Below, piece by piece: positions 22,336 through 56,104 of a DNA stretch of 64,000 bases. The DNA is taken from assembly GCA_036378695.1 (NCBI GenBank), contig DASUVY010000046.1, positions 489 through 64,488 on the forward strand. Direction: 5' to 3'. How positions within the stretch are numbered: position 1 is the first letter of the stretch; every line of letters starts with the position of its first letter. The notes below the pieces were generated by a model, which was given only the letters and a program-made list of their open reading frames with translations, searched no databases and was not told the DNA's origin. The translations under genes and the position numbers were made by a program. This DNA is from Candidatus Dormiibacterota bacterium. GTDB taxonomy: Bacteria; Chloroflexota; Dormibacteria; Dormibacterales; Dormibacteraceae.

Positions 22336-22337
22336 AG

Positions 22338-23246
22338 ATGGCGACCAACATCGGGCGGCTGCTCACCGCGATGCTCACCCCGTTCACCGCGGACGGCGCG
22401 ATCGACTACGGCAAGGTCGGCGAGCTGGCGGGGCTGCTGTGTGAGGACGGCTCCGACGGCGTGGTCGTGTTCGGCACCACCGGCGAGGCGCCCACGCTCA
22501 GCGACCAGGAGAAGATCGAGCTGGTGCGTGTGGTGCGCGCCGCCATCCCGGGCAAGAACGTGGTCGCCGGCGCCGGCACCAACAGCACCCACCACTCGGT
22601 CGAGCTGGGCGAGAAGGCTATGCAGGCTGGCGCCGACGCGCTGCTGGCCGTGGTGCCCTACTACAACAAGCCGCCCCAGGAGGGCATGCTCCAGCATTTC
22701 AAGGCCATCTCCGAGGTCGGCCCCACGATCATGTACAACATCCAGGGCCGCACGGCCATCAACATGACCGTGCAGACCACGCTCCGCTGCGCCGAGCTGC
22801 CCGGCATCCTGGGCGTCAAGGAGGCCAGTGGCTCCCTCGACCAGATGAGCCTGATCTGCGCGGCCAAGCCGGAGCGCTTCCGAGTCTGGGCCGGCGACGA
22901 CGGCATCACGCTGCCGCTGCTGGCGGTCGGCGGCTACGGGGTGATCTGCGTGGTCAGCCACCTGGCGGGCGGCTCGATGAAGCGGATGATCGAGGCCTAC
23001 CTGGCGGGCGACGTGGCGACGGCGCGCGACATCCACCTGCGCCTGTCGCCGGTCATCAACGCGCTCATGACTACGGCAGCCAACCCCGTGCCGGTGAAGA
23101 TGGTCGTCAACGAGCTGGGCTTCAAGGCCGGTCCCTTCCGGCTGCCGCTGACGCCGCTCAGCGACGAGGAGCTGGGCAAGGTCATGAAGACCGTGCGCGC
23201 CGCCGGCGACGTCATCACGTTTAAGCCGGGGGTCAAGGTCGCCTAG
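22338..23246 (+). CDS. dapA: 4-hydroxy-tetrahydrodipicolinate synthase
   Basis: ATG at 22338 inside the listed 21615 ORF. TAMLTPF...GTTGEAPTLS and YNKP motifs. Confidence 0.92.
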   Translation: MATNIGRLLTAMLTPFTADGAIDYGKVGELAGLLCEDGSDGVVVFGTTGEAPTLSDQEKIELVRVVRAAIPGKNVVAGAGTNSTHHSVELGEKAMQAGADALLAVVPYYNKPPQEGMLQHFKAISEVGPTIMYNIQGRTAINMTVQTTLRCAELPGILGVKEASGSLDQMSLICAAKPERFRVWAGDDGITLPLLAVGGYGVICVVSHLAGGSMKRMIEAYLAGDVATARDIHLRLSPVINALMTTAANPVPVKMVVNELGFKAGPFRLPLTPLSDEELGKVMKTVRAAGDVITFKPGVKVA

Positions 23247-23280
23247 CACTTCCGCGGAGCTCGAGCTCCTGCACACGCAG

Positions 23281-32914: not shown

Positions 32915-34459
32915 ATGCCTACCTACCTGATCGTGATTTTGGTAGCGGTGGTGACAGCGGTCCTCGCCGGTGGAGTCGGTTACCTGCTCGCCGCCTCGAC
33001 GGTCGGCAAGCGGCAGCGCCTGGAGCTTGGCGAGCTCGAGGCAAAACACCAGCAGCGGTTGCTCGACGTGGAGGCCGCTGCCAAGGAAAAGCTGCTGGAG
33101 GCCAAGGAAGAGGCGGTCCGCATTCGAACCGCGGCCGAGCAGGAGGCGCGCGAGACCAGGGCGCAGGCCCAACAGGTCGAGCGACGCCTGCTTCAAAAGG
33201 AAGAGAACCTGGAGAAGCGATCCGACGACCTGACCCGCCGGGAGGAGGGCTTTTCAGCGCGGGAGCGCGGGCTGGAGGAGATCCGGGCCCAGCTCGAGGA
33301 GACCTACAGCGCCCAGCTGCGTGAGCTGGAGCGGGTGGCCCAGATGACGCGTCAGGAAGCTCAGGGCGTCCTCATGACCCAGGTCGAGCAAGACCTCCGC
33401 AACGAGGTCGCGCGCAAAGTCCGGGAATCGGAGCTGGCCGCTCGCGACGAGAGCGAGCGCCGGGCCCGGGCGATCGTGACCGAGGTGATCCAGAGAATCG
33501 CCGCCGACCAGACTGCCGAGACCTCGGTCTCGGTCCTGCCACTACCCAACGAGGAGATCAAGGGCCGGATCATCGGCCGCGAGGGGCGCAACATCCGCGC
33601 CCTGCAGCAGGCCACCGGCATCGATCTCATCATCGACGACACCCCCGAAGCCGTGATCATCAGCGGCTTCGACCCGGTCCGCCGCGAGGTGGCCCGCACC
33701 GCGCTCAACAAGCTCATCGTCGACGGTCGGATCCATCCGGCCCGGATCGAGGAGGTTGTGAGCAAGGCCCGCCAGGAGGTGCTCCTGCGGGTCAAGGAGG
33801 AGGGGGAAGCGGCCGTAATGGAAGTCGGCTTCCAGGGCCTGCACCCGGAGGTGGTCCGCCACCTCGGCATCCTTCGCTTCCGCACAAGCTACGGCCAGCA
33901 GGTCCTCAACCATTCCAAGGAGGTCGCCTACCTGGCCGGCATGATGGCTTCCGAGATCGGCGCCGACGTCCGCATCTCCAAGATGAGCGGGCTCCTGCAC
34001 GACATCGGCAAGTCCATCGACCACGAGGTGGAGGGTTCGCACGCGGTGATCGGGGCCGACCTCCTGCAGCGGCACGGGGTCCCGGCGCCGGTCGTGCACG
34101 CGGTGCGCGCCCACCATTACGACGAGGAGCCTCACACCATCGAGGCCTTCCTCCTGATCGCCGCCGACGCCATTTCGGCCGCCCGGCCGGGCGCTCGCCG
34201 GGAGACGCTGGAGGCATACATCAAGCGGCTGGAGAAGCTGGAGGAGATCGCCAACTCCTTTCAGGGCGTCCAGCAGTCCTACGCCATCCAGGCCGGGCGC
34301 GAGATCCGCATCCTGGTCCGGCCCGAGCAGATCGACGATTCGTCGGCCCAGCTCATGGCTCGGGACATCGCCAAGCGGATCGAGAGCGAGATGAGCTACC
34401 CCGGGCAGATCCGGGTCACGGTCGTCCGCGAGACCCGCGCCGTCGAATACGCCAAATAG
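32915..34459 (+). CDS. rny: Ribonuclease Y
   Basis: N-terminal TM, coiled coil, KH ([14 protein letters not shown]) and HD domain (LLHDIGK). Confidence 0.93.
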
Positions 34460-34511: not shown

Positions 34512-35306
34512 GTGCCTGAATCCGAGTTCCGCATTCTCTTCGTCGCAGACGTCGTCGGCCGCCCGGGCCGTGAGGCTTGTCGGGCGCTGCTGCCGGAGCT
34601 GAAGGCCGAGCTGCGCCCTCACCTCACAGTGGTCAACGGGGAGAACGCCGCCGGCGGCTTCGGGATCACGGCCAAGATCGCCGAGGAGCTGCTGCGGGCC
34701 GGCGCCGACCTGGTCACCACCGGCAACCACGTCTGGGACCAGAAGCAGTTCGTCGAGGAGCTGCCCGGCCTGCAGCGGGTGCTGCGGCCGCACAATTTTC
34801 CGCCCGGCGCCCCCGGCACCGGCGTCGCCGTGCTGGAGGCCGACGGCGAGCGGGTGCTGGTCATGAACCTCATGGGCCGCCTCTACCTGCAGGACCTGGA
34901 CGACCCCTTCCGGGCTGCGGACGCGGTGTTGGCGGCACATCCGGATGTCCGCATCAGCCTTTGCGACATGCACGCCGAAGCCACCAGCGAGAAGGTCGCG
35001 ATGGGCTGGTACCTGGACGGCCGGGTCAGCGCGGTGGTGGGCACCCACACCCACGTGCCCACCGCCGACGCGCGGGTGCTGCCCGGCGGCACGGCCTACA
35101 TCACCGACGTGGGCATGGTGGGCCCGCGAGATGGCGTTATCGGCGTCGGCAAGGAGGCTGTCCTCAAGCGCTTCCTGACCGGCATCCCGCATCGCTTCGA
35201 AGTCGCTGAAGGACCGGTGACATTCAACTCGGTCGCGATTAGCATTGACAGGCTCACCGGCCGGGCGAATTCGATTTCACGCAACGATCGAGAACACATT
35301 TCATGA
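34512..35306 (+). CDS. ymdB: YmdB-like metallophosphoesterase (2',3'-cyclic-nucleotide phosphodiesterase family, TIGR00282)
   Basis: RILFVADVVGRPG...NGENAAGG...GNHVWD motifs. Lies downstream of rny, as in Bacillus. Confidence 0.88.
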   Translation: MPESEFRILFVADVVGRPGREACRALLPELKAELRPHLTVVNGENAAGGFGITAKIAEELLRAGADLVTTGNHVWDQKQFVEELPGLQRVLRPHNFPPGAPGTGVAVLEADGERVLVMNLMGRLYLQDLDDPFRAADAVLAAHPDVRISLCDMHAEATSEKVAMGWYLDGRVSAVVGTHTHVPTADARVLPGGTAYITDVGMVGPRDGVIGVGKEAVLKRFLTGIPHRFEVAEGPVTFNSVAISIDRLTGRANSISRNDREHIS

Positions 35307-35605
35307 CGGGGGTTCCAGCAATGACGGGGGAGGGGCGCCAACCGGTAGAGGTGCTCAAGGTTTCGGCGACGTCCAAGCCGGTCGCGGTGGCGGGGGCGAT
35401 CGCGGGGGTGATCCGCTCTCAGCAGCGGGTGGAGGTCCAGGCCATCGGCGCCGGCGCCATCAATCAGGCCATCAAGGCGATCGCCATCTCGCGCGGCTAC
35501 GTGGCGCCGGGCGGGCTTGAGCTCATCTGCATCCCCTCCTTCATCGACATCTCGATCGACGGCGAGGAGCGCACCGGTATAAGACTGCTGGTGGAGGTCC
35601 GATAA
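35303..35605 (+). CDS. spoVS: SpoVS family protein
   Basis: LKVSATSKP..VAGAIAGV...AIGAGAINQAIKAIAI...GIRL. The start is ATG 35303 (ATGA overlap) or ATG 35321. Confidence 0.88.
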   Translation: MTGVPAMTGEGRQPVEVLKVSATSKPVAVAGAIAGVIRSQQRVEVQAIGAGAINQAIKAIAISRGYVAPGGLELICIPSFIDISIDGEERTGIRLLVEVR

Positions 35606-36867
35606 CCCGCTCTTTCCACGTCTGGACCATCGGGTGCCAGATGAACGTCGCCGACTCCGAGTCGCTCTCCCGCCGCCTGCTGGCCGCGGGCTACGTCGAA
35701 GAGCCCGATCTGGAGCGGGCCGACGTGGCCATCCTCAACACCTGCGTGGTCCGCCAGGCCTCCGAGGACAAGGTCTATTCCAAGCTCCACGAGCTGCGGG
35801 CGTGGAAGACGCCGGCGCGGACGCTGGCGCTGACCGGCTGCCTGGTCCGCAAGGAGGGCGAGACCCTGCAGCGTCGATTCCCGCAGCTGGACCGGGTGGT
35901 GCCGATCGGCGAGTACGACGAGTTCCTGGCCGAGCTGGGCGCCCGCTACGACCTGTCGATGGGCGAGCCGCTGCCGGTGGCGGGCCGCACCGGCATCAGC
36001 CATTTCGTGAACGTGGTCGAGGGCTGCGACCACAACTGCACCTTCTGCATCGTCCCCAAGGTGCGCGGCCGGGAGCGCCACAAGCCCCTGTGCGCGGTCC
36101 TGGCCGAGTGCCGGGCGGCGGTGGCCGACGGCGCGCGCGAGGTCGTGCTGCTGGGCCAGAACGTCGACGACTACCAGGATCCCGAGGGCCACGGCGGCCT
36201 GGCGGCGCTGGTTTCAGAGGTGGAGCTGATTCCCGGTCTCAAGCGCCTGCGCTTCCTCACCTCGCATCCCCAGGACCTGGAGCCCGAGCTGCTCGAGGTG
36301 ATGGCGCGCAGCCGCCTCATCGCGCACGAGCTGCAGCTGCCCATCCAGTCCGGCGACGACCAGATCCTGAAGCGGATGGCGCGCGGCTACCAGGTGCGTC
36401 ATTACCGGGCCCTCGTGCAGCGCGCTCGGGAGCTGATGCCGGACCTCGGTTTGTATACAGACGTGATCGTCGGGTTCCCCGGCGAGACCCGCGAGCAGTT
36501 CGAGAGCACCCGGCGCGTCATGGAGGAGCTGGAGTTCGACGTCGTCCACCTGGCCATGTACTCGCCGCGGCCCGGCACCTATGCCGCCGACAAAATGGCC
36601 GATGACGTGCCGGCCGAGGAGAAGCGCCGGCGCATCAACGAGCTGCTGCAGCTGCAGCGCGGCATCGCCGCCCGCCGGGCCGCGCGCTGGGTGGGCCGCA
36701 CCGTCGAGGTACTGGTGGAGGGCGCCGACGAGCTCGGCAGGCCCTATGGGCGCAACCGCCAGGGCAAGCGCGTCATCGTGTTGCGTCAACGCCTGCAGCC
36801 GGGAGAGATGGTCGAGGTGGTCGTCAAGGAGGCTTCCGCCGGTCAGCTGACCGGAGTTGCGGCTTGA
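35602..36867 (+). CDS. miaB: tRNA-2-methylthio-N6-dimethylallyladenosine synthase MiaB (proposed ATA start at 35602; first canonical ATG at 35641)
   Basis: MTTase N-domain (WTIGCQMN, LNTC, TGC), radical SAM CDHNCTFC and a TRAM domain. The first conserved Cys is upstream of the listed ATG. Confidence 0.9.
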   Translation: MTRSFHVWTIGCQMNVADSESLSRRLLAAGYVEEPDLERADVAILNTCVVRQASEDKVYSKLHELRAWKTPARTLALTGCLVRKEGETLQRRFPQLDRVVPIGEYDEFLAELGARYDLSMGEPLPVAGRTGISHFVNVVEGCDHNCTFCIVPKVRGRERHKPLCAVLAECRAAVADGAREVVLLGQNVDDYQDPEGHGGLAALVSEVELIPGLKRLRFLTSHPQDLEPELLEVMARSRLIAHELQLPIQSGDDQILKRMARGYQVRHYRALVQRARELMPDLGLYTDVIVGFPGETREQFESTRRVMEELEFDVVHLAMYSPRPGTYAADKMADDVPAEEKRRRINELLQLQRGIAARRAARWVGRTVEVLVEGADELGRPYGRNRQGKRVIVLRQRLQPGEMVEVVVKEASAGQLTGVAA

Positions 36868-39332
36868 CCGACACCCCCGCGCTGCGCCAGTACCGCGAAG
36901 CCAAGGCGGCGCACCCGGACTCGATCCTCCTCTTCCGGATGGGCGACTTCTACGAGATCTTCTTCGAGGACGCCCAGGCCGCCGCGCCGATCATGGGCGT
37001 CACCCTCACCTCGCGGCCCATGGGCAAGACTGGCCGCGCCCCCATGTGCGGCGTGCCCCACCACTCCTGGCAGGGCTACGTGGGCAAGCTGCTGCGCGCC
37101 GGCCGCTCGGTGGTGATCTGCGAGCAGATGGAGGCGCCCGGCCCGGGCAAAGGCGTGCTCAGGCGCGAGGTCACCCGCGTGTTAACGCCGGGCACCGTGG
37201 TCGAGGAGGCTTACCTGGAGCCGGGGCGCTCCAACTACCTGGTGGCGGCCTGGACTCAAGGCGGGTGGGCCGGCCTGGCCGCCTGCGAGGTCTCGGCGGG
37301 CGAGCTCCTGCTCTGCCAGCTTCCCGCCGAGCGGCTGCCCGCGGAGCTGGACCGCCTGGCGCCGGCCGAGCTGCTGACGCCGCCCGCGGTCGACACCTTC
37401 CGCTTCGACCCCGAGCGGGGCCGCCGCCGGTTGCAGGAGATGCTGGGCATCGCCCACCCCGCGGCGGTGGGAGCGGAGGAGGCGCCGCTGGCGCTGGGCG
37501 CCGCCGGCGTCGTGCTCGACCACCTGAGCCGGGGCCAGGTGCGGGTCGAGCCCGGGCTCTTCCGGGTCCGCACCTACGCGCCCGAGGCCACCATGCAGCT
37601 TGACCCGGCCACCGTTCGCAACCTGGAGCTGCCGGCGCTGCTGAAGCTGGTCGACCGGACGTCGGCCGCCATCGGGGCGCGCCAGCTGCGCGCCTGGCTC
37701 TCGGCGCCGCTGCGCGACGTGGAGGCGATCGAGCTGCGGCTGGGCGCCGTCGCCGAGCTGGCGGCGGGCGGCAGCCAGCGTGAACGCCTGCGCGCGGCGC
37801 TGCGCGAGGTGGGGGACCTGGAGCGGCTGGTGAGCCGCGCCGCCCAGGGCATCTCCTCGCCGCGCGAGCTGGTGGCCCTGCGCCGTTCGCTGGAGGCGCT
37901 GCCGGGTGTGATCGAGGTGCTGGCCGACGCCGGCGCGCTGGCGCTGCGCGCGCTGGCGGGCCGCTTGCAGCCGGCGCCCGTGCTAACCGCCGAGCTGGCG
38001 CGGGCATTGGTCGAGGACCCGCCCGCCAGCGCGCGCGAGCCGGGCGCCGTGCGCGCGGGATTTGACGCGGCGCTGGATTCTATCCGCGACGCCTCGCGCA
38101 CCGCCCGCGAGTACATCGCGGCGCTGGAGGCGCGGGAGCGCGAGCGCACCGGCATCCGCGGCCTGCGGGTCGGCTACAACCGCGTCTTCGGCTACTACAT
38201 CGAGGTCGGCCACGCACATGCGGGCTCGGTGCCGGCGGACTACGTGCGCAAGCAGACCCTGACCGGCGCCGAGCGCTACATCACGCCGGAGATGAAGGAG
38301 CAGGAGGCGGTCGTCCTCAACGCCCAGCACGACGCCCTGGCCCGCGAGCAGGAGGTGCTGAGCGGGCTGTGCGAACGGGTCGCGGCCATTGCCGGGCCGC
38401 TGCTGGCCACGGCCGAAGCCCTGGGCGACCTGGACGCGCTGGCCGCGTTGGCCGAGACGGCCTCGGCTCTGGATTGGGTGCGACCGGAGGTCAGCGCCGG
38501 CCTGGAGCTGCGGATCAGCGGCGGCCGCCATCCGGTCGTCGAAGCCTCTCTGCCCGCCGGCAGCTTCGTCGCCAATGACGTCGAGCTCGACCCCGACGGC
38601 CAGCAGGTGATCGTGCTCACGGGCCCCAACATGGCGGGCAAGTCGACATACCTGCGCCAGGTGGCGCTGATCGTGCTGCTGGCGCAGTGCGGCTCTTTCG
38701 TGCCCGCCGACCAGGCGCGCATCGGGCTCGCTGACCGGGTCTTCACGCGGGTGGGCGCGCACGACGACCTCAGCTCGGGCATGTCGACCTTCATGGTCGA
38801 GATGACGGAATCGGCCAACATCCTCAACCACGCCACCCGCGCTTCGCTGGTGGTCCTGGACGAGGTGGGGAGGGGGACGTCCACCTACGACGGCATCTCG
38901 ATCGCCCAGGCGCTGGTCGAGCACATCCACGACCGCGTTGGCTGTCGCACGCTTTTCGCCACCCACTACCACGAGCTGACGGCGCTGGCCGACCGCCTGC
39001 CCCGCGTCTGCAACCAGCGCGTGGAGGTGGTGGAGGAGGGCGACCGGGTGAGCTTCCTGCACCGGGTGGTGCCGGGCGGCGCCGACCGCTCTTACGGCAT
39101 CCACGTGGCGGCGCTCGCCGGCCTTCCGCCTTCTTTGATCGCTCGAGCGCGCCAGGTGCTGGGCGAGCTGGAGCGGCACCGGCCGCTGGAGCCGCCCGCC
39201 CAGCAGCTGGGCCTGCCGCTGGAAGCGGCGCCCGACCCCGTCTCCGCCGAGCTGAGCGAGCTCGATCTCGACCAGCTCACGCCCATCGAGGCCCTGCAGA
39301 AGCTGTACGAGCTGCGCTCACGCCTGCCTTGA
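36864..39332 (+). CDS. mutS: DNA mismatch repair protein MutS
   Basis: TTGA overlap. TPALRQY...FRMGDFYE N-terminus and Walker A GPNMAGKST. Confidence 0.95.
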   Translation: MTDTPALRQYREAKAAHPDSILLFRMGDFYEIFFEDAQAAAPIMGVTLTSRPMGKTGRAPMCGVPHHSWQGYVGKLLRAGRSVVICEQMEAPGPGKGVLRREVTRVLTPGTVVEEAYLEPGRSNYLVAAWTQGGWAGLAACEVSAGELLLCQLPAERLPAELDRLAPAELLTPPAVDTFRFDPERGRRRLQEMLGIAHPAAVGAEEAPLALGAAGVVLDHLSRGQVRVEPGLFRVRTYAPEATMQLDPATVRNLELPALLKLVDRTSAAIGARQLRAWLSAPLRDVEAIELRLGAVAELAAGGSQRERLRAALREVGDLERLVSRAAQGISSPRELVALRRSLEALPGVIEVLADAGALALRALAGRLQPAPVLTAELARALVEDPPASAREPGAVRAGFDAALDSIRDASRTAREYIAALEARERERTGIRGLRVGYNRVFGYYIEVGHAHAGSVPADYVRKQTLTGAERYITPEMKEQEAVVLNAQHDALAREQEVLSGLCERVAAIAGPLLATAEALGDLDALAALAETASALDWVRPEVSAGLELRISGGRHPVVEASLPAGSFVANDVELDPDGQQVIVLTGPNMAGKSTYLRQVALIVLLAQCGSFVPADQARIGLADRVFTRVGAHDDLSSGMSTFMVEMTESANILNHATRASLVVLDEVGRGTSTYDGISIAQALVEHIHDRVGCRTLFATHYHELTALADRLPRVCNQRVEVVEEGDRVSFLHRVVPGGADRSYGIHVAALAGLPPSLIARARQVLGELERHRPLEPPAQQLGLPLEAAPDPVSAELSELDLDQLTPIEALQKLYELRSRLP

Positions 39333-40948
39333 CGATCCGCCAGCTGCCGCCCGAGGTGGCCGACGCTATCGCCGCCGGCGAGGTCGTGGAGCGCCCGGCG
39401 TCGGTGGTCAAGGAGCTGGTCGAGAACTCGCTGGACGCAGGTGCGCGTCGGATCAGCGTGGAGGTGCGCGCCGCCGGCCGCGGCCTGGTGCGCGTTGCGG
39501 ACGACGGCGGGGGCATCTCGCCCGAGCAGCTGGAGCTGGCTTTCCGGCGCCACGCCACCAGCAAGGTCGCGCGCCTCGAAGACCTGGCCGGGATCGGCAC
39601 CCTCGGCTTTCGGGGGGAGGCGCTGGCCAGCATCGCGGCGGTCTCTGAGGTCGAGTGCCGCACGCAGGCCGCCGCCATCCGGCTCCGCGCCGGCGAGGTG
39701 GTGGCGCGGGGCGCGGCGCCAGCCACGCCGGGGACCGTGGTCGAGGTGCGCGAGCTCTTCGCCAACACGCCCGCCCGCCTCAAGTTCTTGAAGTCGGACG
39801 CCACCGAGACCGCGGCCGCCGCCCAGGTCGTGCGCAGCTACGCCGTGCTGCGGCCGGACGTCCGCTTCGAGCTGGTGGTCGAGGGCCGCCGCGCCCTGGC
39901 CACGCCGGGCGACGGCGATCGCCGCGCGGCCCTGGGCGCCGTGCTGGGGCCGCAGGTGGCGGAGGCCATGCTGGCCGTGGAGGCCGAGGGTCTGCAGGGC
40001 CTGGTCTCCGAGCCGCGCCTGAGCCGGGGCAGCCGGGAGGCCGTGGTGCTGGCCGTCAACTCCCGCCCCGTCGCCTCGCACCGGCTCCAGCACGCGCTGG
40101 AGCAGGCGTACCTGGGCCGCCTGGAGCGCGGCCGCCACCCGGTCGCCGTGCTGGACCTGACGGTGCCCGCCGCCGAGGTGGACGTCAACGTGCACCCGGT
40201 CAAGCGCGAGGTTCGGTTCCGGGACGAAGGCGCGCTCTACGGCCTCGTTCAGCGCGCCGTGCTGGCGGCGCTGGGCGGCTCTCGAGTGTTCGCGATGTCG
40301 CTGCAGACTGTGGCCGCCGGCCCGGCGCCGCGCACCGCTGACATCGCGCTTCCGATGGAGCCGGCGCCCCCCAAGCCCGCCACCCTGCTGCGGCCGCTGG
40401 GGCAGGTGCTGGACGGCTACCTGGTGGCCGAGGGTCCCGACGGCATCCTCCTGGTCGACCAGCACGCCGCCCACGAGCGCGTGCTGTACAACCGCTTCCT
40501 GGCCCGCCTCCGCGGCGCGCCGGCCCCCAGCCAGCCGCTGCTGCTGCCGCAGGTGGTGGAGGTGGAGCCCGCCCTGGCGGCGGCCGCCAGCGACCAAGGC
40601 TCGAGCTTGACCGCCGTGGGCTTCGAGGTCGAGGGCTTCGGGCCGGGCGCGCTCCAGGTGCGGGCCGCACCGGTGGAGACGCCTCCTCAGCGCGTCGAGG
40701 AAGCTCTCGTCGACCTGCTCTCCAGCCTGGCCGGGGCGCGACCCGACGACCGACTGGAGCGAGCTGCCGCCTCCCTGGCCTGCCACTCGGCGGTGCGCTT
40801 CGGCGATGCCATGGACGCCGCCGAGCAGCGCCGGCTGCTGGAGGAGCTGGAGGGCACCGAGGATTCGATCACCTGCCCGCACGGCCGGCCCACGCGGCTG
40901 GAGCTGAGCGCCCAGGAGCTGCGCCGCCACTTCCGGAGGAATTACTGA
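39329..40948 (+). CDS. mutL: DNA mismatch repair protein MutL
   Basis: TTGA overlap. IRQLPPEVADAIAAGEVVERPASVVKELVENSLDAG GHKL ATPase and the C-terminal region ACHSAVRFGD. Confidence 0.93.
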   Translation: MTIRQLPPEVADAIAAGEVVERPASVVKELVENSLDAGARRISVEVRAAGRGLVRVADDGGGISPEQLELAFRRHATSKVARLEDLAGIGTLGFRGEALASIAAVSEVECRTQAAAIRLRAGEVVARGAAPATPGTVVEVRELFANTPARLKFLKSDATETAAAAQVVRSYAVLRPDVRFELVVEGRRALATPGDGDRRAALGAVLGPQVAEAMLAVEAEGLQGLVSEPRLSRGSREAVVLAVNSRPVASHRLQHALEQAYLGRLERGRHPVAVLDLTVPAAEVDVNVHPVKREVRFRDEGALYGLVQRAVLAALGGSRVFAMSLQTVAAGPAPRTADIALPMEPAPPKPATLLRPLGQVLDGYLVAEGPDGILLVDQHAAHERVLYNRFLARLRGAPAPSQPLLLPQVVEVEPALAAAASDQGSSLTAVGFEVEGFGPGALQVRAAPVETPPQRVEEALVDLLSSLAGARPDDRLERAAASLACHSAVRFGDAMDAAEQRRLLEELEGTEDSITCPHGRPTRLELSAQELRRHFRRNY

Positions 40949-41814
40949 CCCCGATCCTGGTCGTGGTCGGGCCGACCGGGATCGGCAAGACCCGAGCGGC
41001 CTTCGAGCTGGCGCTGCGTCTCGACCAAGACGTGCTGGTGGCGGATTCCCGCCAGGCCTACCAGCGGCTCCACATCGCGACCAATCACCCGCCTGCCGAA
41101 TACCGGCAGCGCGTCAACTACCGGGGCATCGAGTTCGCCGACCCGGTCACCGAGGTGGCGACCGTGTTCGACTTCCTGAAGCAGTCCAGCTCGAGCCGGC
41201 CGCTGTCGGTGGTCGAGGGCGGCAGCATGCTCTGGGTCGACGCGCTGACCGAGGGCTTCAACCTGGCCGGCGTGCCCCCCAATCCGGAGCGGCGGGCGGA
41301 CCTGCAGGATGTGCCGGTCGAGGAGCTGGCCGAGATCGTGCGCCGGCTGGATCCGCAAGCCGAGCTCGACTTTCGCAACCGCGTGCGGCTGATCAGGGCG
41401 ATCGAGATCCTGGAGGCCAGCGGTCCGCCCTTGGGCAGCACCCGCCGATGGCGACGCACCCCCGAGTTCAGGCGCTTCGGCCTCGACGCGCCCATGGAGG
41501 TCATCGAGCGGCGCTTGCGGGCCCGCTGCCAGGAGCAGGTCGAGCGCGGCCTGCTGGCCGAGACCGAAGCCGCCCTGGCGGCCGGCGTGCCCCGCAGCCA
41601 CCCGGTGCTGACCGGCATCGGCTACCGCCAGGCGCTCGATTGCCTCGAAGGCCGGATCAGCCAGGCCGAGCTGCCCAACCGCATGTTCATCGCCAACCGG
41701 CGGTACGCGCGCCGCCAGCTGGCCTGGTTCAAGCGCCATCCCCACACGACGTGGGTGGCGGCGGAGCCAGACCCGGTGCCCGCTATCCTGAGATCGCTGG
41801 AGACCGCCGTCTGA
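40945..41814 (+). CDS. miaA: tRNA dimethylallyltransferase MiaA (proposed CTG start at 40945; first canonical GTG at 40963)
   Basis: P-loop GPTGIGKT preceded by the beta-strand ILVVV, which lies upstream of the first canonical start. CTGA overlap with mutL. Confidence 0.88.
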   Translation: MTPILVVVGPTGIGKTRAAFELALRLDQDVLVADSRQAYQRLHIATNHPPAEYRQRVNYRGIEFADPVTEVATVFDFLKQSSSSRPLSVVEGGSMLWVDALTEGFNLAGVPPNPERRADLQDVPVEELAEIVRRLDPQAELDFRNRVRLIRAIEILEASGPPLGSTRRWRRTPEFRRFGLDAPMEVIERRLRARCQEQVERGLLAETEAALAAGVPRSHPVLTGIGYRQALDCLEGRISQAELPNRMFIANRRYARRQLAWFKRHPHTTWVAAEPDPVPAILRSLETAV

Positions 41815-43091
41815 TTCCCACCCAGCCCGTCAAGGAGCGGGCGTACCTGATCGGCGTGCTCCTGCCCGGGACCTCACCGGCCGCCGTCGAGGAGCAGATG
41901 CGGGAGCTGGAGGAGCTCTCGCTCACCGCCGGCGCCGAGGTCGTGGCCTCCGAGGTCCAGCGCCGAGACGAGGTCGAGCCCGGGCTCTTCGTTGGAAAAG
42001 GCAAGGTCGAGGAGATCCGCGAGCGGCGCGAGGAGCTGCGCTACGACCTGGTGGTCTGCAACGAGGACCTGAGCCCGCGCCAGCAGCGCAACCTGGAGCG
42101 CGAGCTGAAGATCAAGGTGGTAGACCGGACCGAGCTGATCCTCGATATCTTCGCCCAGCACGCGCGCACTCGCGAGGGCCGGCTGCAGGTCGAGTCGGCG
42201 CAGCTGCACCACCTTTTGCCGCGCCTGATCGGCGCCTACGACTACCACCGCCAGGGCGGCGGCATCGGCACTCGCGGCGGCCCCGGGGAGCAGCAGATCG
42301 AGGTCGAGCGCCGGCGCATCCGCAAGCGCCTGAAGGACCTGGAGCGGGAGCTGGAGGACGTTCGCCGACAGCGCCAGCAGCAGCGCGCGGCCCGCCGCAG
42401 CTCCGAGCTGGTGACGGTGGCCATCGTGGGCTACACCAACGCGGGCAAGTCCACGCTCCTCAACACCCTCACCCGCGCCGGCGTGCGGGCCGAGAACAAG
42501 CTCTTCGCCACCCTCGATCCCACCACCCGGCGCCTGCGCCTCGAGAGCGGGCGCGAGCTGCTGCTGACCGACACCGTGGGCTTCATCCAGAAGCTTCCGA
42601 CCGACCTGGTGGCGTCCTTCCGGGCGACGCTGGAGGAGGTCACCCACGCGGACATCGTGCTGCACGTGCTCGATGCCAGCGCCCCGGCCGTCCTCGAGCA
42701 CGCGGCCACGGTGGACCAGGTCCTGGGCGAGCTGGGCGCAGCCGACAAGCCGCGGGTGCTGGCGGTGAACAAGGTCGACTTGCTGGGACCCGCAACACGG
42801 CGGCGGGTGCTGGGCGAGATCAGCGAGGGCCACCCGGGCGCGATTCCCATCTCGGCCCTGCAAGGGAACGGCCTCGAGCGGCTGCTGGCGGCGCTGGAGG
42901 CCGCGGCCGAGCAGGATATGGTCCGGCTCAAGATGCTGGTGCCCTACGGACGCGAGCAGGTCCTGCACGAGCTGCGCCAGCTGGGTGGGCTGGAGGGTTC
43001 CGAGTTCACCGAGCGCGGGACCGTGGCCTGGGGCCGGGCGCCGCGGGCCTCCCTGCACCGCTTCCAGCCCTTTTTGCTGGAGGGCGCCTGA
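41811..43091 (+). CDS. hflX: GTPase HflX (proposed CTG start at 41811; alternative GTG at 41751)
   Basis: HflX N-domain (ERAYLIGV...ELEELSLTAGAEVV), GGIGTRGGPGE, and G-domain GYTNAGKST, DTVGF, NKVD. It is 426 aa from the CTG. Confidence 0.9.
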   Translation: MIPTQPVKERAYLIGVLLPGTSPAAVEEQMRELEELSLTAGAEVVASEVQRRDEVEPGLFVGKGKVEEIRERREELRYDLVVCNEDLSPRQQRNLERELKIKVVDRTELILDIFAQHARTREGRLQVESAQLHHLLPRLIGAYDYHRQGGGIGTRGGPGEQQIEVERRRIRKRLKDLERELEDVRRQRQQQRAARRSSELVTVAIVGYTNAGKSTLLNTLTRAGVRAENKLFATLDPTTRRLRLESGRELLLTDTVGFIQKLPTDLVASFRATLEEVTHADIVLHVLDASAPAVLEHAATVDQVLGELGAADKPRVLAVNKVDLLGPATRRRVLGEISEGHPGAIPISALQGNGLERLLAALEAAAEQDMVRLKMLVPYGREQVLHELRQLGGLEGSEFTERGTVAWGRAPRASLHRFQPFLLEGA

Positions 43092-47391: not shown

Positions 47392-47392
47392 G

Positions 47393-47475
47393 GCGCGACA
47401 GCCCCGTCTGTATACAAACGAGGCCGTCTGGGAAGCGCGACTGCCACCTCTGCACACAAACGTGGCAGTCGGGAC
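47393..47475 (+). repeat. Two tandem 42-nt hairpin repeats with conserved ACAAACG-containing loops (plus a partial third GCGCGAC unit at 47484)
   Basis: Units start at 47393 and 47435 and are about 80 percent identical by hand alignment. Unit 2 has a perfect 9-bp stem, GACTGCCAC/GTGGCAGTC, with a 14-nt loop. Confidence 0.6.
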
Positions 47476-47541
47476 CCATGGCAGCGCGACGGCTCAAAAT
47501 CCGGCTGTGGGAGGTTACGTTCGAGCAGTTGCGCGGAGAGC

Positions 47542-48648
47542 ATGGCGGACGGTGCTGGTCGCTGCGTTGTTGATCCTTGGCGGGGCGCTCCTGATCTTAC
47601 TACCTGGCGTCGCTATACCCAACGCGGTTCGGGCAAGGTCTGTTGGGATGATCGGGGAGGAAATGAGTTCCGGAGCCGGCGCTATAGCCAGAATGCTCTC
47701 GATAATCGCCGGAGTTCGTTCGTAACCGAGGTCTTGCGCGCGGGAGTAGGCGGACGCTTAGCGGAGGGGTCGAGCGCGCCTCTGGCGAGCAGGCGGAACG
47801 AACAGATGGGCGGCTGGAAGGGGTGCCTTGGTGGGGCCCCGCCACCGGCCCGCCAGCCGGTCCTCCCTGGCGGTGTTGAGGCGCAGCGGGACCCCGTAGC
47901 TAGTCCGCGACTACGAAGCGCGCCGTCCTTGTCTAGAGGCACATATTGGGGGCGTTGGGAATGTGCCTCGTATTGCGCCGAACAGTGTGAGGCGCTGTCT
48001 GCAAACGCTGAGCCGCGCCTAACGGTCGGTAGTGGGTCGGACATTGGCTTGCAAGCGACCTTGGAGCGGCTCTGGCCGTCAAGGGCCCCGGCGGCGGGCT
48101 CCCTCCTGCCCGCCACCTTCGGACCTGACCCCGGGGCCCACGAGTCGCCGCAGGCGGCGAGGGGTGGGGAGCTGGCCAGCTCGGACAGTGCCGGAGCCGT
48201 GGCTCCGGCGGGCGCGCTAGCGCCCAAGCCGCGTAAAGGTCGCCGTCGTTGCTGTCAGTACTGTTCAGGCGTTATCGAGAAGGGTGATGCGACTACTGGC
48301 TACCTGTATCACTCGGCTTGTTGGCAGGCTGCGGCCGAGCGTAGAGCGCCAGCTCTAGCCGAGGTCCGCGCTCAGGTTGAGAGTACTAACGCTGTGGCGG
48401 CCTACCTGGTCGCGCAGACACAAAATCGGCTACCGTCGCTGCTGGTGCCGTCAAGAGCAAGCCTCACGGTAAGCAGCGCAAAGTCTGGCGCGGCTCCTGA
48501 CGCCAGTCAGATTACTCGTGTCGGTACTGATGCGTGGCGCGGAGCGCCCGCTGCCCAGGGAGGAGGCACGGGTTCCAACAGAGTTGGAACGCCGATCAGT
48601 ACCGATGCTGTTGATAATCGCCGTTTAGGAAAGCACCAAGCCGGTTAG
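47542..48648 (+). CDS. Orphan ORF with Cys-rich motifs, atypical codon usage (internal ATG at 47806 may be the real start)
   Basis: A 368-codon open frame in a segment visibly less GC-rich than its neighbours. Codon first positions are G-rich. Contains C-x3-C-x3-C and a basic stretch followed by CCQYC-x17-HSAC. Confidence 0.35.
   Translation: MADGAGRCVVDPWRGAPDLTTWRRYTQRGSGKVCWDDRGGNEFRSRRYSQNALDNRRSSFVTEVLRAGVGGRLAEGSSAPLASRRNEQMGGWKGCLGGAPPPARQPVLPGGVEAQRDPVASPRLRSAPSLSRGTYWGRWECASYCAEQCEALSANAEPRLTVGSGSDIGLQATLERLWPSRAPAAGSLLPATFGPDPGAHESPQAARGGELASSDSAGAVAPAGALAPKPRKGRRRCCQYCSGVIEKGDATTGYLYHSACWQAAAERRAPALAEVRAQVESTNAVAAYLVAQTQNRLPSLLVPSRASLTVSSAKSGAAPDASQITRVGTDAWRGAPAAQGGGTGSNRVGTPISTDAVDNRRLGKHQAG
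47552..47725 (+). CDS. Possible small hydrophobic protein (57 aa), very uncertain
   Basis: A GTG-started frame encodes VLVAALLILGGALLILLPGVAIP... with one clear TM segment. It overlaps the 47542 ORF in another frame and has no clear SD. Confidence 0.25.
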   Translation: MLVAALLILGGALLILLPGVAIPNAVRARSVGMIGEEMSSGAGAIARMLSIIAGVRS

Positions 48649-48649
48649 G

Positions 48650-54357: not shown

Positions 54358-54716
54358 GGCAGGACCAGCTCCTTCAAGCCGACCAGCAGCAGCGTCACCG
54401 CGAAAGCGATCCGCAGCGGCCGGTTCGGGATCCGGTGCGCGACCCGCGCGCCCAGGTAGGCGCCGATCGCCGAGCCCACCACCAGGAGGACCGCGAATCG
54501 CAGGTCGACCTGGGGCCTCGTCGAGCCGTAGTAGTAGATCAGGGCGCCCACCACGGCGCCGGGGATGATGGCGGCCAGCGAGGTGGCGTTGGCGTGGAGC
54601 TGGTCGACGCGCGCGAACATCACCTGCAGCGGCACCAGGGCGAAACCGCCCCCCACGCCGAGCAGCCCTCCCAGCAGACCGGCCACCAGGCCGATCGCTA
54701 GGAAGGTCCCTGCTAT
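54354..54716 (-). CDS. TauE/SafE (TSUP) family half-size membrane protein, N-terminal-repeat equivalent (start ATA 54716 or GTG 54686)
   Basis: FLAIGLVAGLLGGLLGVGGGFALVPL and about 4 TM segments. It is the C-terminal part of the listed 54354..56195 shadow-extended ORF. Confidence 0.65.
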   Translation of the reverse strand: MAGTFLAIGLVAGLLGGLLGVGGGFALVPLQVMFARVDQLHANATSLAAIIPGAVVGALIYYYGSTRPQVDLRFAVLLVVGSAIGAYLGARVAHRIPNRPLRIAFAVTLLLVGLKELVLP

Positions 54717-54883
54717 TCCCGGCTCTCGGTGACGGGCGGCGGTGTGGGCGCCGGCGTCGGCGTGAAAGAGGACACGGCGTGGTGGCGGAACTGGACGTTC
54801 TCGGCGGCCGCCAGCGTTTTGTCCTTCTTCTGCTTCTTCTTTTTCTTGTCTTCGCGCCCGCGGTTGTCGCGTCCTTTGGCCAT
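54713..54883 (-). CDS. Unlisted small ORF: Lys-rich 56-aa protein
   Basis: The ATG is preceded by AAGGAGGA with 4 nt of spacing. Encodes MAKGRDNRGREDKKKKKQKKDKTLAAAENVQFRHHAVSSFTPTPAPTPPPVTESRE. It falls below the 60-aa cut-off of the ORF track. Confidence 0.5.
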   Translation of the reverse strand: MAKGRDNRGREDKKKKKQKKDKTLAAAENVQFRHHAVSSFTPTPAPTPPPVTESRE

Positions 54884-56104
54884 CTAGTCCTCCTTGGCCT
54901 CCAAGGATAGGACCAGCTCGCGCAGGAACGACTCCACGTCGGTCACCAGCCCGATCGACTGCCAGGAGCCGCGGTCGGCCAGTTTGGTCACCACCGCCGG
55001 GTTGATGTCGACGCAGACCGTGCGCACGCCGGCCGGCAGCAGGTTGCCGGTGGCGATCGAGTGCAGCATGGTCGAGAGCATCAGGGCCAGGCGCACGCCC
55101 GGCACCGCTTCCCGCATGCGCTTCTGCGCCTCCACCATGTCGGTGACCACGTCGGGCAGCGGCCCGTCGTCGCGCACGCTGCCCGCCAGCACGATGTCGA
55201 CCCCGTGCGTGATGGCGGTGTGCATCACGCCCCGTGTCAGCCGCCCGGAATCGACCATCGCCCTCAGGGAGCCGGCGGCGCGCACCCGGTTGATGGCGCG
55301 CATGTGGTGCTCGTGGCCGTGCTCGATGGGCAGGCCGCTGTCCAGGTTGACGCCCAGGGCGGTTCCGAAGAGAGCAGCTTCGACGTCGTGCACGGCCAGG
55401 GCGTTGCCTGCGAACAGCACCTGCACGTAACCCATCTCGATCAGCTGCGAGAGGTAGCGGCCGGCCCCGGTGTGGACCACGGCCGGGCCGCTGACGACCA
55501 GGATGCGTCCGCCCTCGGCGCGCACCTGGCGCATCTCGGAGGCGATCTTGGAGATGAGCAGCTTCTTCGGCTTCTCGGCCGAGACCTCGCTGGCCATGAA
55601 GGTGAAGATCTCGGTCTGCCGGGAGCGCTCCAGCGGGACCACGCGCACGCCCGCATGGCCGACCACCACCCGCACGCCGGGCCGGGCCTCGTAGAAGGGG
55701 ATGCAGCGCGCGCTCCCCTCCGCCTCGTCGACGGCGATGGCGCAGTCCATCTCCTGCTTCTGCACCGGCAGCCACTTCTCCCCGGCCAGCACGTACGTGG
55801 GCAGGTTGGTGGTCGAGTAGAAGCCTTCGGGGTAGACGCCCTGCTTCTCCACGGGCACCAGCCGAGCCGGCGCCTCCTCGGCAGCCTGCGCACCCAGCTC
55901 CTTGGCCCGGCGCACGATGCGATCCAGGGTGCCGGCGTCGGGCGCCACCACCTCCATCCGGCAGAAGGAGGTGTCGTCCTTGTGCTGGCCGACGCGCAGC
56001 TCCTCGATGTTGAAGTTGCCGCCCAGGTCCATGACCAGGTCCATGACCTGGGGCAGGATCATCGAGTCGATGATGTGGCCCTCCAGAACTAGGAGAGTTC
56101 TCAT
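54884..56104 (-). CDS. LOR/SDH conserved-domain (TIGR00300-like) protein, function uncertain
   Basis: ATG at 56104 inside the listed 54884..57106 ORF. The MRTLLVLEGHIIDS N-terminal domain plus a Rossmann-like C-terminal half match my memory of this family. Confidence 0.7.
   Translation of the reverse strand: MRTLLVLEGHIIDSMILPQVMDLVMDLGGNFNIEELRVGQHKDDTSFCRMEVVAPDAGTLDRIVRRAKELGAQAAEEAPARLVPVEKQGVYPEGFYSTTNLPTYVLAGEKWLPVQKQEMDCAIAVDEAEGSARCIPFYEARPGVRVVVGHAGVRVVPLERSRQTEIFTFMASEVSAEKPKKLLISKIASEMRQVRAEGGRILVVSGPAVVHTGAGRYLSQLIEMGYVQVLFAGNALAVHDVEAALFGTALGVNLDSGLPIEHGHEHHMRAINRVRAAGSLRAMVDSGRLTRGVMHTAITHGVDIVLAGSVRDDGPLPDVVTDMVEAQKRMREAVPGVRLALMLSTMLHSIATGNLLPAGVRTVCVDINPAVVTKLADRGSWQSIGLVTDVESFLRELVLSLEAKED

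What the first reader, a model, noticed from the sequence alone, without database searches (positions are those of the whole stretch)
35518..35645. miaB cannot start at a canonical codon: conserved N-terminus begins at ATA overlapping the spoVS stop (ATAA)
The first ATG/GTG/TTG in the miaB frame after the in-frame stop at 35518-35520 is the ATG at 35641. That codon is the Met inside the conserved GCQMN motif.

The 13 open codons upstream (35602-35640, ITRSFHVWTIGCQ) match the E. coli MiaB N-terminus (MTKKLHIKTWGCQMN) in length. They contain the first of the three Cys ligands of the N-terminal MTTase cluster. A protein started at 35641 would lack that Cys.

The codon at the homologous start position is ATA (35602-35604). 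It shares 2 nt with the spoVS TAA stop. This is the same geometry as the many ATGA, GTGA and TTGA junctions in this window, and suggests termination-reinitiation at AUA.
Basis: partly seen in the sequence, partly recalled or inferred. Interest (0 to 1): 0.62.

Follow-up and report, generated by a model that had tools for sequence, protein, structure and literature searches.

The report
miaB starts at stop-overlapping AUA
In this uncultured soil bacterium (phylum Dormibacterota) the tRNA-modifying enzyme MiaB has no normal start codon; it appears to be translated from a weak AUA (CUG or GUA in relatives) overlapping the stop codon of the preceding gene, which gene finders miss, truncating about half of the closest database entries.

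Summary
After the in-frame TGA at 35518-20, the miaB frame has no ATG/GTG/TTG until ATG 35641, the Met of GCQMN. ATA 35602-04 overlaps the spoVS stop TAA 35603-05, and GGAGG lies 4 nt upstream. A depth-13 unitig from the best-matching run reads ATA, as do three related strains.

I compared 83 distinct spoVS-miaB junctions from Dormibacterota genomes and metagenomes.
- 69 lack any canonical start.
- In 68 of those 69 the spacer is frame-locked to the spoVS stop. It takes 16 different lengths, all 2 mod 3, with no in-frame stop in 512 codons.
- The stop-overlapping codon is CTG (34), ATA (24), GTA (9) or CTA (1), never ATG/GTG/TTG.
- Rare A-ending Arg codons are enriched before TAA.
- Three genomes have a stop in the miaB frame directly before the overlapping codon, so translation cannot begin further upstream.
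- Junctions with their own canonical start lose the frame lock.

mutS and spoVS in the same genomes use canonical starts.

Two more CTGA junctions lie in this window: mutL-miaA and miaA-hflX. At the hflX site CTG alternates with TTG and ATG among relatives.

Best reading: initiation at a near-cognate codon overlapping the stop, probably coupled to termination. This is a new variant of known translational coupling.

The parts
35321..35605 (+). spoVS coding sequence (94 aa). Its last codons, GTG GAG GTC CGA TAA, carry the signals for miaB.
   Evidence: PF04232 SpoVS in relatives' gene calls. In 40 of 41 relatives examined an ATG lies 9-11 codons before LKVS (the other has GTG there), preceded by a GGGG motif. 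The ATG at 35303 (ATGA with ymdB) is not conserved.
35518..35520 (+). TGA, the last stop in the miaB frame upstream of the gene.
35593..35597 (+). Shine-Dalgarno-like GGAGG inside spoVS (codons Val-Glu-Val), 4 nt before ATA.
   Evidence: TGGAG is found at this position in 65 of 68 frame-locked junctions.
35602..35604 (+). ATA, the proposed near-cognate start codon of miaB. It overlaps the spoVS stop by 2 nt (ATAA).
   Evidence: The only near-cognate codon among the first nine codons. The record's own protein P0001 begins MTRSFH, 421 aa.
35603..35605 (+). TAA stop codon of spoVS.
   Evidence: It is TAG in related strains.
35602..35640 (+). 13 codons (I/M)TRSFHVWTIGCQ: beta-strand 1 of the MTTase N-terminal domain, including the Cys12 codon TGC 35635-35637.
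   Evidence: Amino-acid conservation with synonymous changes in about 95 relatives. Aligned to solved MiaB 7MJV.
35641..35643 (+). ATG, first canonical start in the frame. It is the internal Met14 of GCQMN, and gene finders wrongly use it as the start.
   Evidence: 65 of 119 closest database proteins start here.
35602..36867 (+). miaB-like methylthiotransferase coding sequence, 421 aa (Cys12, Cys48, Cys80; radical-SAM CDHNCTFC; TRAM-like C-terminus).
36864..36867 (+). TTGA: canonical stop/start overlap of miaB and mutS. Serves as an internal control.
   Evidence: In the relatives examined the mutS start overlapping or abutting the miaB stop is GTGA, TTGA or TGATG (about 27 cases); most of the rest have a canonical start a few codons to about 30 nt further on.
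40945..40948 (+). CTGA: the mutL stop overlaps a CTG that is the likely miaA start. GGAGGA lies at 40935-40940, 4 nt upstream.
41811..41814 (+). CTGA: the miaA stop overlaps a CTG that is the likely hflX start.
   Evidence: Relatives have CTG (8), TTG (2) or ATG (2) at this same codon.

Best explanation
miaB (35602-36867) is translated from AUA 35602-35604, which overlaps the UAA stop of spoVS by two bases.

Proposed steps:
1. The GGAGG formed by the last spoVS codons (35593-97) pairs with the anti-Shine-Dalgarno sequence of 16S rRNA. This places the P site of a ribosome over AUA. Most likely this is a ribosome that has just terminated spoVS (termination-reinitiation); it may also be a newly bound 30S subunit.
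2. Initiator tRNA pairs with two of the three bases of AUA.
3. The product is the full 421-aa enzyme, fMet-Thr-Arg-Ser-Phe-His..., including Cys12 of the auxiliary [4Fe-4S] cluster.
4. The weak codon keeps MiaB output a small, fixed fraction of SpoVS output.

Shown here: the geometry, its conservation across the phylum, translation of everything downstream of the stop-overlapping codon, and selection on the base preceding the stop.

Inferred: use of initiator tRNA at AUA, dependence on spoVS termination, and the expression-tuning rationale.
For: 1. No canonical start exists, yet the 13 upstream codons are conserved as protein, with synonymous changes, in about 95 relatives. They align to the solved MiaB structure.

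2. Frame lock. Of 83 distinct spoVS-miaB junctions, 69 have no ATG/GTG/TTG before the Trp codon. In 68 of those 69 the spacer is 2 mod 3. It takes 16 distinct lengths from 2 to 83 nt, which needs at least 15 indels (at least 31 on an NJ tree), all multiples of 3. There are no in-frame stops in 512 spacer codons.

3. Upstream bound. L014 and L108 (ATA) and L126 (GTA) have TAG in the miaB frame immediately before the overlapping codon. Translation therefore cannot begin further upstream.

4. Identity of the overlapping codon: CTG 34, ATA 24, GTA 9, CTA 1, canonical 0. CUG and AUA are the only two codons allowed by NTRA geometry that belong to the E. coli near-cognate class, which initiates at 0.1-3% of AUG (10.1101/063800).

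5. Selection on the base before the stop. Before TAA the last Arg codon is CGA or AGA in 24 of 34 junctions, although these make up 4.5% of Arg codons in the window's genes. Before TGA it is CGC in 34 of 34 and never CGG, which would give GTGA, although CGG makes up 29% of Arg codons.

6. Where a canonical start exists in the spacer (14 junctions), the frame lock is relaxed. Five are not 2 mod 3 and two more have in-frame stops.

7. Controls in the same genomes. The mutS start that overlaps or abuts the miaB stop is GTG, TTG or ATG. The spoVS start is a conserved ATG.

8. The closest relative (92% aa) has CTG ACC AGG TCT in the same geometry. A 79% relative with its own ATG encodes MTRSFH.

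9. TGGAG lies 4-5 nt upstream in 65 of 68 junctions.

10. The same device recurs. At hflX the homologous start codon is CTG-A in 8 genomes, TTG-A in 2 and ATG in 2. At miaA, CTGA appears in 4 genomes.

11. Reads confirm ATA.
Against: - There is no direct evidence of the N-terminus. The phylum is known here only from metagenome-assembled genomes, and the one RNA run was uninformative.
- In E. coli, an SD-less coupling reporter worked with AUGA but not with aUAA (PMC9955659). AUA would have to work better here, possibly because of the GGAGG.
- Ten junctions have GTA or CTA, which are not near-cognate by E. coli standards. All ten are followed by ACG, so the actual start there may be the next codon.
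- TAA-type junctions have ACG or ATC as second codon in 33 of 34 cases, and the window (ACC) is the exception. This leaves open which of the two codons is used in relatives.
- Comparative data cannot separate termination-dependent reinitiation from ordinary SD-driven 30S initiation at the same codon.
- There is one frame exception, L005, from a contig of coverage 1.2.
Confidence: 0.72

Rival explanations
1. Same start codon (AUA 35602) but no coupling. Free 30S subunits bind the GGAGG and initiate de novo. The overlap with the stop is only a by-product of the SD lying in the conserved Val-Glu codons of spoVS.
For: TGGAG sits at a fixed 4-5 nt in 65 of 68 junctions. This geometry alone would force the start codon onto the stop. 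In E. coli, aUAA without an SD gave no coupling.
Against: De novo initiation at AUA or CUG is proofread by IF3 and gives about 0.1-3% of AUG. The operon is otherwise built from 4-nt overlaps typical of termination-reinitiation. GTA and CTA junctions are hard to explain by de novo initiation.
Confidence: 0.14
2. A -1 frameshift or stop-codon bypass at the last spoVS codon produces a SpoVS-MiaB fusion protein, with no initiation at all.
For: The miaB frame is always -1 relative to spoVS. A frameshift-fusion at an AUGA overlap has been reported in M. tuberculosis (PMC11260477).
Against: There is no slippery heptamer. The last two sense codons vary (AGC/AGT/GTC/GTG followed by CGC/CGA/AGA/CGG/AGG), and none re-pairs in the -1 frame. 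The base before the stop is under selection that fits start-codon identity, not frameshifting. Relatives with independent canonical starts make unfused MiaB. Predicted local structure is not unusual, z = -1.2.
Confidence: 0.06
3. Initiator-independent resumption. Post-termination ribosomes that are not recycled slide one base and resume elongation in the miaB frame.
For: In E. coli lacking RRF activity, ribosomes read downstream of a stop in all frames, even with aUA junctions (PMC9955659).
Against: That behaviour needs loss of RRF and uses all three frames. Here a single frame is conserved, and the overlapping codon is restricted to CTG/ATA/(GTA).
Confidence: 0.04
4. The gene really starts at ATG 35641, or at an upstream alternative codon such as CTG 35527; or ATA is a sequencing error for ATG.
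For: Gene finders call 35641. One annotation of a relative (P0063, source NCBI) extends it 26 codons upstream.
Against: A start at 35641 removes the first of the three N-terminal-domain cysteines and beta-strand 1, yet these 13 codons are conserved as protein. An upstream start is excluded by in-frame stops directly before the overlapping codon in L014, L108 and L126, and by the variable open length upstream (0-127 codons). Reads from four runs show ATA.
Confidence: 0.03

Closest known systems
Translational coupling by termination-reinitiation at 4-nt stop/start overlaps (ATGA, GTGA, TTGA); Huber et al. 2019 and 2023 (PMC6728339, PMC10666635); review PMC12548453
   Same: Co-directional genes. 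The start codon overlaps the stop by the same -4 geometry. An SD lies inside the upstream gene. The same operon uses ATGA, GTGA and TTGA at other junctions.
   Different: The overlapping codon is ATA, CTG or GTA and never a canonical start. These surveys consider NTG starts; Huber 2023 mentions non-canonical starts only as a possible source of odd -5 overlaps.
Known near-cognate bacterial start codons: AUU of infC and pcnB in E. coli (from my own knowledge); the AUA/AUC/AUU/CUG class measured by Hecht et al. (10.1101/063800); the GTC start of Streptomyces sigR repressed by IF3 (PMC5472188)
   Same: A weak, one-mismatch start codon is conserved in orthologues, presumably to keep or regulate low expression.
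   Different: Those cases are free-standing starts, as far as I know. Here the codon is fused to the upstream stop. It alternates between two different near-cognates (CUG and AUA, at least 16 switches on the tree). It recurs at three junctions of one operon.
RNA phage GA/MS2 coat-lysis coupling and E. coli reporters with UAAUG/AUGA junctions (PMC9955659)
   Same: The same junction architecture was tested experimentally, including the exact aUAA variant.
   Different: In E. coli without an SD, aUAA gave no downstream translation. In Dormibacterota the AUAA junction, with a GGAGG, is the only available start for a conserved enzyme.
uPPE2-PPE2 AUGA overlap in M. tuberculosis, with both reinitiation and frameshift-fusion (PMC11260477)
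   Same: A stop/start overlap in a high-GC bacterium. The same two mechanistic alternatives have to be separated.
   Different: That junction has a canonical AUG. No fusion evidence exists here, and sequence features argue against one.

Membership tests
MiaB (tRNA i6A37 methylthiotransferase, radical-SAM MTTase) | N-terminal UPF0004 domain with three Cys for the auxiliary [4Fe-4S] cluster | tested here: met
   Cys12 (GCQMN), Cys48 (NTCVVR) and Cys80 (TGC) when read from ATA. PF00919 is on record. Aligned to 7MJV from residue 5. Met only if translation starts upstream of 35635.
MiaB (tRNA i6A37 methylthiotransferase, radical-SAM MTTase) | Radical-SAM CxxxCxxC core and a C-terminal TRAM domain | tested here: met
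   CDHNCTFC is present. PF04055 and PF01938 are on record.
MiaB (tRNA i6A37 methylthiotransferase, radical-SAM MTTase) | Score above the curated equivalog cut-off, which distinguishes MiaB from RimO and MtaB | tested here: inconclusive
   TIGR00089 (MiaB/RimO subfamily): 394.5 bits against a cut-off of 251, met. TIGR01574 (MiaB equivalog): 339.8 against 355.3, just below. RimO scores 249.6 and MtaB 267.4, both far below their cut-offs. The best solved match is MiaB (E 8e-77) against RimO (3e-52). miaA lies in the same gene cluster.
Termination-reinitiation coupling at -4 overlaps | Co-directional genes whose stop and start overlap as NTRA | tested here: met
   ATAA at 35602-35605. NTRA geometry holds in 68 of 69 start-less junctions.
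Termination-reinitiation coupling at -4 overlaps | The downstream start codon is ATG, GTG or TTG | tested here: not met
   ATA here. CTG, ATA, GTA or CTA in relatives; none canonical among 83 junctions.
Termination-reinitiation coupling at -4 overlaps | Downstream translation depends on translation and termination of the upstream gene | not testable with these tools
   Needs reporters with spoVS start or stop mutations.
Near-cognate (non-AUG/GUG/UUG) bacterial start codon | Conserved coding sequence upstream of the first canonical start, with a one-mismatch codon at the orthologous start position | tested here: met
   58 of 68 junctions carry CTG or ATA. At hflX, CTG alternates with TTG and ATG at the same codon.
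Near-cognate (non-AUG/GUG/UUG) bacterial start codon | N-terminal Met/fMet peptide or a start-site ribosome footprint at that codon | not testable with these tools
   No proteomic or ribosome-profiling data. The RNA run X20 was fragmentary.
Programmed -1 ribosomal frameshifting | Slippery heptamer X XXY YYZ at the shift site | tested here: not met
   The terminal codons are GTC CGA TAA here and vary among relatives, with no re-pairing possible.
Programmed -1 ribosomal frameshifting | Stimulatory downstream RNA structure | tested here: inconclusive
   Fold of 35560-35670: -42.8 kcal/mol, z = -1.2 against shuffles. The spacer downstream is variable in length and sequence.

The most novel reading that the evidence does not exclude
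Dormibacterota as a phylum tolerate, and selectively maintain, near-cognate codons (CUG, AUA, perhaps GUA or ACG) as start codons at stop/start overlaps. Ribosomes that have just terminated would reinitiate with relaxed start-codon stringency, and the cell would use the choice among CUG, AUA and canonical codons as a per-gene dial for expression ratios within operons.

In this window about 3 of 13 four-nt overlaps are of this kind. If that proportion holds genome-wide, a substantial share of operonic genes in the phylum are mis-annotated at their 5' ends. The phylum would then be a natural system for asking how start-codon specificity is set during reinitiation, a question the 2025 review calls open (PMC12548453).
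Probability: 0.45. Interest if true: 0.8.

Novelty: new variant of a known kind. Interest (0 to 1): 0.68.

Why it matters
1. Annotation. 65 of the 119 closest database proteins are called from the internal Met and lack the first cluster-binding Cys. Others are given arbitrary upstream extensions (P0063). The same problem affects miaA and hflX.

2. Mechanism. The data give comparative evidence, from many independent indels and codon switches, that a stop-overlapping CUG, AUA or GUA can be the sole initiation signal of a conserved enzyme. This is the junction (AUAA) that failed in an E. coli coupling reporter. It bears on the open question of how start-codon specificity is enforced during reinitiation.

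3. Evolution. At spoVS-miaB the base before the stop is kept so that the codon is weak. It is neither canonical nor, in most cases, null. That pattern looks like stabilising selection on a translation ratio between an abundant small protein and a low-copy Fe-S enzyme.

Tried and rejected
- Assembly error at ATA: rejected by unitigs from four runs.
- Start at ATG 35641: rejected by protein-level conservation of the 13 upstream codons and their alignment to solved MiaB.
- Upstream alternative start inside spoVS (for example CTG 35527, or the extended start in the NCBI-sourced protein P0063): rejected because L014, L108 and L126 carry an in-frame TAG right before the overlapping codon.
- ATC 35629 as start: it would keep the Cys, but it cannot explain conservation of RSFH(V/I)W as protein.
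- -1 frameshift fusion: no slippery site and variable terminal codons.
- RNA structure at the junction: not distinguishable from shuffles, z = -1.2.
- Metatranscriptome run X20: only fragmentary contigs of related strains, with nothing spanning the junction usefully.
- MiaA-based genome scan: only one unrelated hit, because the protein is too divergent.
- MutL-based genome scan: saturated by generic MutL motifs, with no Dormibacterota returned. I replaced it with five operon-length loci fetched through MiaB relatives.
- tRNA scan of the window, looking for an initiator tRNA: none found.
- Literature search for start-codon usage in Dormibacterota: no paper found.
Full report
**What is in the window.** The region is a co-directional gene run: rny (32915-34459), ymdB (34512-35306), spoVS, a MiaB-type methylthiotransferase, mutS (36864-39332), mutL (39329-40948), miaA and hflX. 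The closest relatives are metagenome-assembled genomes labelled Candidatus Dormibacterota.

spoVS ends with TAA at 35603-35605. In the miaB frame the last stop is TGA 35518-35520, and the first ATG/GTG/TTG after it is ATG 35641, the Met of WTIGCQMN. The 13 codons before it (35602-35640) read ITRSFHVWTIGCQ. ATA 35602-35604 overlaps the TAA by two bases, and GGAGG (35593-35597) lies 4 nt upstream.

**The 13 codons belong to the protein.**
- NCBIfam MiaB/RimO profiles match from residue 4-5 counted from ATA, at profile position 2-3.
- The solved Bacteroides uniformis MiaB (7MJV) aligns from residue 5, including the GCQMN cysteine.
- Read from ATA, the protein has Cys12, Cys48 and Cys80. This is the three-Cys signature of the auxiliary-cluster domain (established knowledge for MTTases).
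- Dehalococcoidia orthologues have ATG exactly three codons before (Y/F)(H/Y)IWTIGCQMN.
- Across about 95 Dormibacterota loci, R-S/T-F-H/N-I/V-W-T-I-G-C-Q is conserved with synonymous changes: Ser TCN/AGC, Arg CGN/AGG, Phe TTC/TTT.

**It is not an assembly error.** In the run holding 92% of the sampled words, a 116-nt unitig of depth 13.4 covers 35542-35657 without a difference. Three other soil runs carry related strains that keep ATA and differ only at 35605 (TAA to TAG) and nearby third positions.

**Comparative anatomy of the junction.** I collected loci from three sources:
- one genome per GTDB species;
- JGI metagenome contigs;
- ENA contigs.

96 loci have spoVS directly upstream of miaB, giving 83 distinct junction sequences.

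69 of the 83 have no ATG/GTG/TTG between the spoVS stop and the Trp codon. In 68 of those 69:
- The distance from the stop to the conserved Arg codon is 2 mod 3.
- That distance takes 16 different lengths from 2 to 83 nt.
- There is no in-frame stop in 512 spacer codons. In these GC-rich spacers the other two frames hold only 3 stops each in 444 codons, so this is expected rather than telling.

Sixteen lengths require at least 15 indels. Parsimony on an NJ tree of miaB gives at least 31, all multiples of three. If indels were unconstrained, 15 would all be multiples of three with probability of roughly (1/3)^15. The spacer is therefore translated in the miaB frame from the stop onward. Pairs of close relatives show third-position and AGA/CGN changes within it; for example, L030 and L034 both read KAPR.

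The one exception, L005, comes from a contig of coverage 1.2.

In L014, L108 and L126 the miaB frame has TAG immediately before the stop-overlapping codon. Translation therefore cannot come from further upstream.

**The overlapping codon.** It is CTG in 34 junctions (always cgC-TGA), ATA in 24 (cgA/agA-TAA), GTA in 9, CTA in 1, and never ATG, GTG or TTG.

With NTRA geometry only NTG or NTA codons are possible. CUG and AUA are exactly the two of these that belong to the E. coli near-cognate class, which initiates at 0.1-3% of AUG (10.1101/063800).

The base before the stop is under selection.
- CGA and AGA together make up 4.5% of Arg codons in 25 window genes, yet they account for 24 of 34 final codons before TAA.
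- CGG makes up 29% of Arg codons, yet it is never used before TGA, where it would create GTGA.

The state switched at least 16 times on the tree. The window (ATAA) and its 92%-identical relative (CTGA: CTG ACC AGG TCT) are one such pair. A 79% relative that has acquired its own ATG encodes MTRSFH.

TGGAG lies 4-5 nt upstream in 65 of 68 junctions.

**Contrast cases.** Fourteen junctions have a canonical start inside the spacer. In these the lock is relaxed: five are not 2 mod 3, and two more carry in-frame stops.

In the same genomes, where the mutS start overlaps or abuts the miaB stop it is GTGA, TTGA or TGATG; most other genomes have a canonical start a little further downstream. spoVS itself starts at a conserved ATG with its own G-rich motif. 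Non-canonical initiation is therefore gene-specific, not a general blur.

**The same device elsewhere in the window.**
- mutL to miaA. The mutL stop (40946-48) overlaps CTG 40945-47, with GGAGGA 4 nt upstream. The first canonical start in the miaA frame is a GTG two codons before the P-loop, which would delete beta-strand 1, and the frame has no canonical start for more than 200 codons upstream. L164, L327 and L328 have the same CTGA. L324-L326, where miaA is separated from mutL, have an ATG.
- miaA to hflX. The miaA stop (41812-14) overlaps CTG 41811-13. At this exact codon, eight codons before ERAYL, twelve Dormibacterota genomes including the window's have CTG-A (8), TTG-A (2) or ATG (2). 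In four of them an aminotransferase rather than miaA lies upstream.

CTG is therefore interchangeable with canonical starts at one homologous site. About 3 of 13 four-nt overlaps in the window are near-cognate.

**Mechanism.** The best-supported reading is initiation at the stop-overlapping near-cognate codon, aided by the embedded SD. Most likely it is carried out by ribosomes that have just terminated spoVS.

Comparative data cannot separate coupled from SD-driven de novo initiation, so I keep that as the main rival.

A -1 frameshift fusion has a precedent at an AUGA overlap in M. tuberculosis (PMC11260477). It is disfavoured for three reasons:
- there is no slippery site;
- the terminal codons vary;
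- selection on the base before the stop fits start-codon identity.

Local RNA structure is unremarkable.

**Caveats.**
- In E. coli an SD-less aUAA junction did not support coupling (PMC9955659).
- GTA and CTA junctions (10) are not near-cognate. All ten are followed by ACG.
- TAA-type junctions have ACG or ATC as second codon in 33 of 34 cases, against 14 of 34 for CTG-type junctions. In some relatives the start may therefore be the codon abutting the stop (TAACG, analogous to TAATG).
- The window itself (ATA ACC) and its sister strains (ATA GCC) have only the ATA available.

**Known or new.** Termination-reinitiation at NTGA overlaps and rare near-cognate starts are each well known. I found no paper on start codons in Dormibacterota. 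In the papers I read, I found no description of a conserved stop-overlapping CUG/AUA junction serving as the only start of a conserved enzyme.

The window's own record does give the protein as MTRSFH..., 421 aa (P0001). An annotator has therefore already used ATA. Even so, 65 of the 119 closest database entries are truncated at Met14.

I rate this a new variant of a known kind.

Noticed in passing
window 40935-40969: The mutL stop TGA (40946-48) overlaps CTG 40945-47, with GGAGGA 4 nt upstream. This CTG is the only plausible miaA start. The first canonical GTG (40963) lies 2 codons before the P-loop GPTGIGKT. The same CTGA is found in L164, L327 and L328, while L324-L326 have a separate ATG.
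   Followed up: yes
window 41751-41860: The miaA stop TGA (41812-14) overlaps CTG 41811-13, the likely hflX start, giving (M)IPTQPVKERAYLIGV. Relatives have CTG-A (8), TTG-A (2) or ATG (2) at the same codon. In the window an in-frame GTG at 41751 (20 codons upstream) makes the window alone ambiguous.
   Followed up: yes
window 35303-35323: spoVS has two candidate ATGs. The ATGA overlap with ymdB at 35303 is not conserved. ATG 35321, preceded by GGGGG, is the conserved start in 40 of 41 relatives (94-aa protein).
   Followed up: partly
L025, L037, L084, L095, L104, L108, L122, L124, L115, L008, L019 (spacer between spoVS and miaB): Some relatives carry a 50-100 nt insertion in the spacer with an inverted repeat (ccctctcccc...ggggagaggg). 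It is translated in frame as ...APSPxRGEGSGERG.... It stays stop-free and 2 mod 3 unless a canonical GTG has arisen downstream of it, as in L008. It looks like a small repeat or hairpin element absorbed into the N-terminal tail.
   Followed up: no
spoVS-miaB junctions of 68 relatives: The codon after the overlapping codon is ACG or ATC in 33 of 34 TAA-type junctions but ACG in only 14 of 34 CTG-type junctions. All 10 GTA/CTA junctions are followed by ACG. This suggests ACG (TAACG, a -1 overlap) may serve as the start, or as a back-up start, in some lineages.
   Followed up: partly
proteins P0002-P0120: 65 of the 119 closest database relatives are called from the internal Met of GCQMN and lack the first Cys. 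A few are given long arbitrary N-terminal extensions, for example P0063 (447 aa). A sister clade (xRTFHVW) uses ordinary GTG, TTG or ATG 1-2 codons before Arg.
   Followed up: partly
window 11554-11632: The ORF listed from GTG 11554 overlaps the upstream gene by 79 nt. An ATGA overlap at 11629-11632 is the more likely real start.
   Followed up: no
window 35602-36867: The protein scores just below NCBIfam's MiaB equivalog cut-off (339.8 against 355.3) while passing the MiaB/RimO subfamily model. This fits the 'MiaB/RimO family' label that NCBI-sourced records give its relatives.
   Followed up: partly
L005 (JALZAW010000275.1, coverage 1.2): This is the only start-less junction that is out of frame (spacer 85 nt, TAG stop). 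A GTG in a GGTGAGG context sits out of frame in the spacer, so a 1-nt assembly error is a plausible cause.
   Followed up: no
window 22336-23280, 47392-48649, 54460-56100: These stretches have no long high-GC3 ORF in my crude gene list. No tRNA was found anywhere in the window. I did not examine them further.
   Followed up: no
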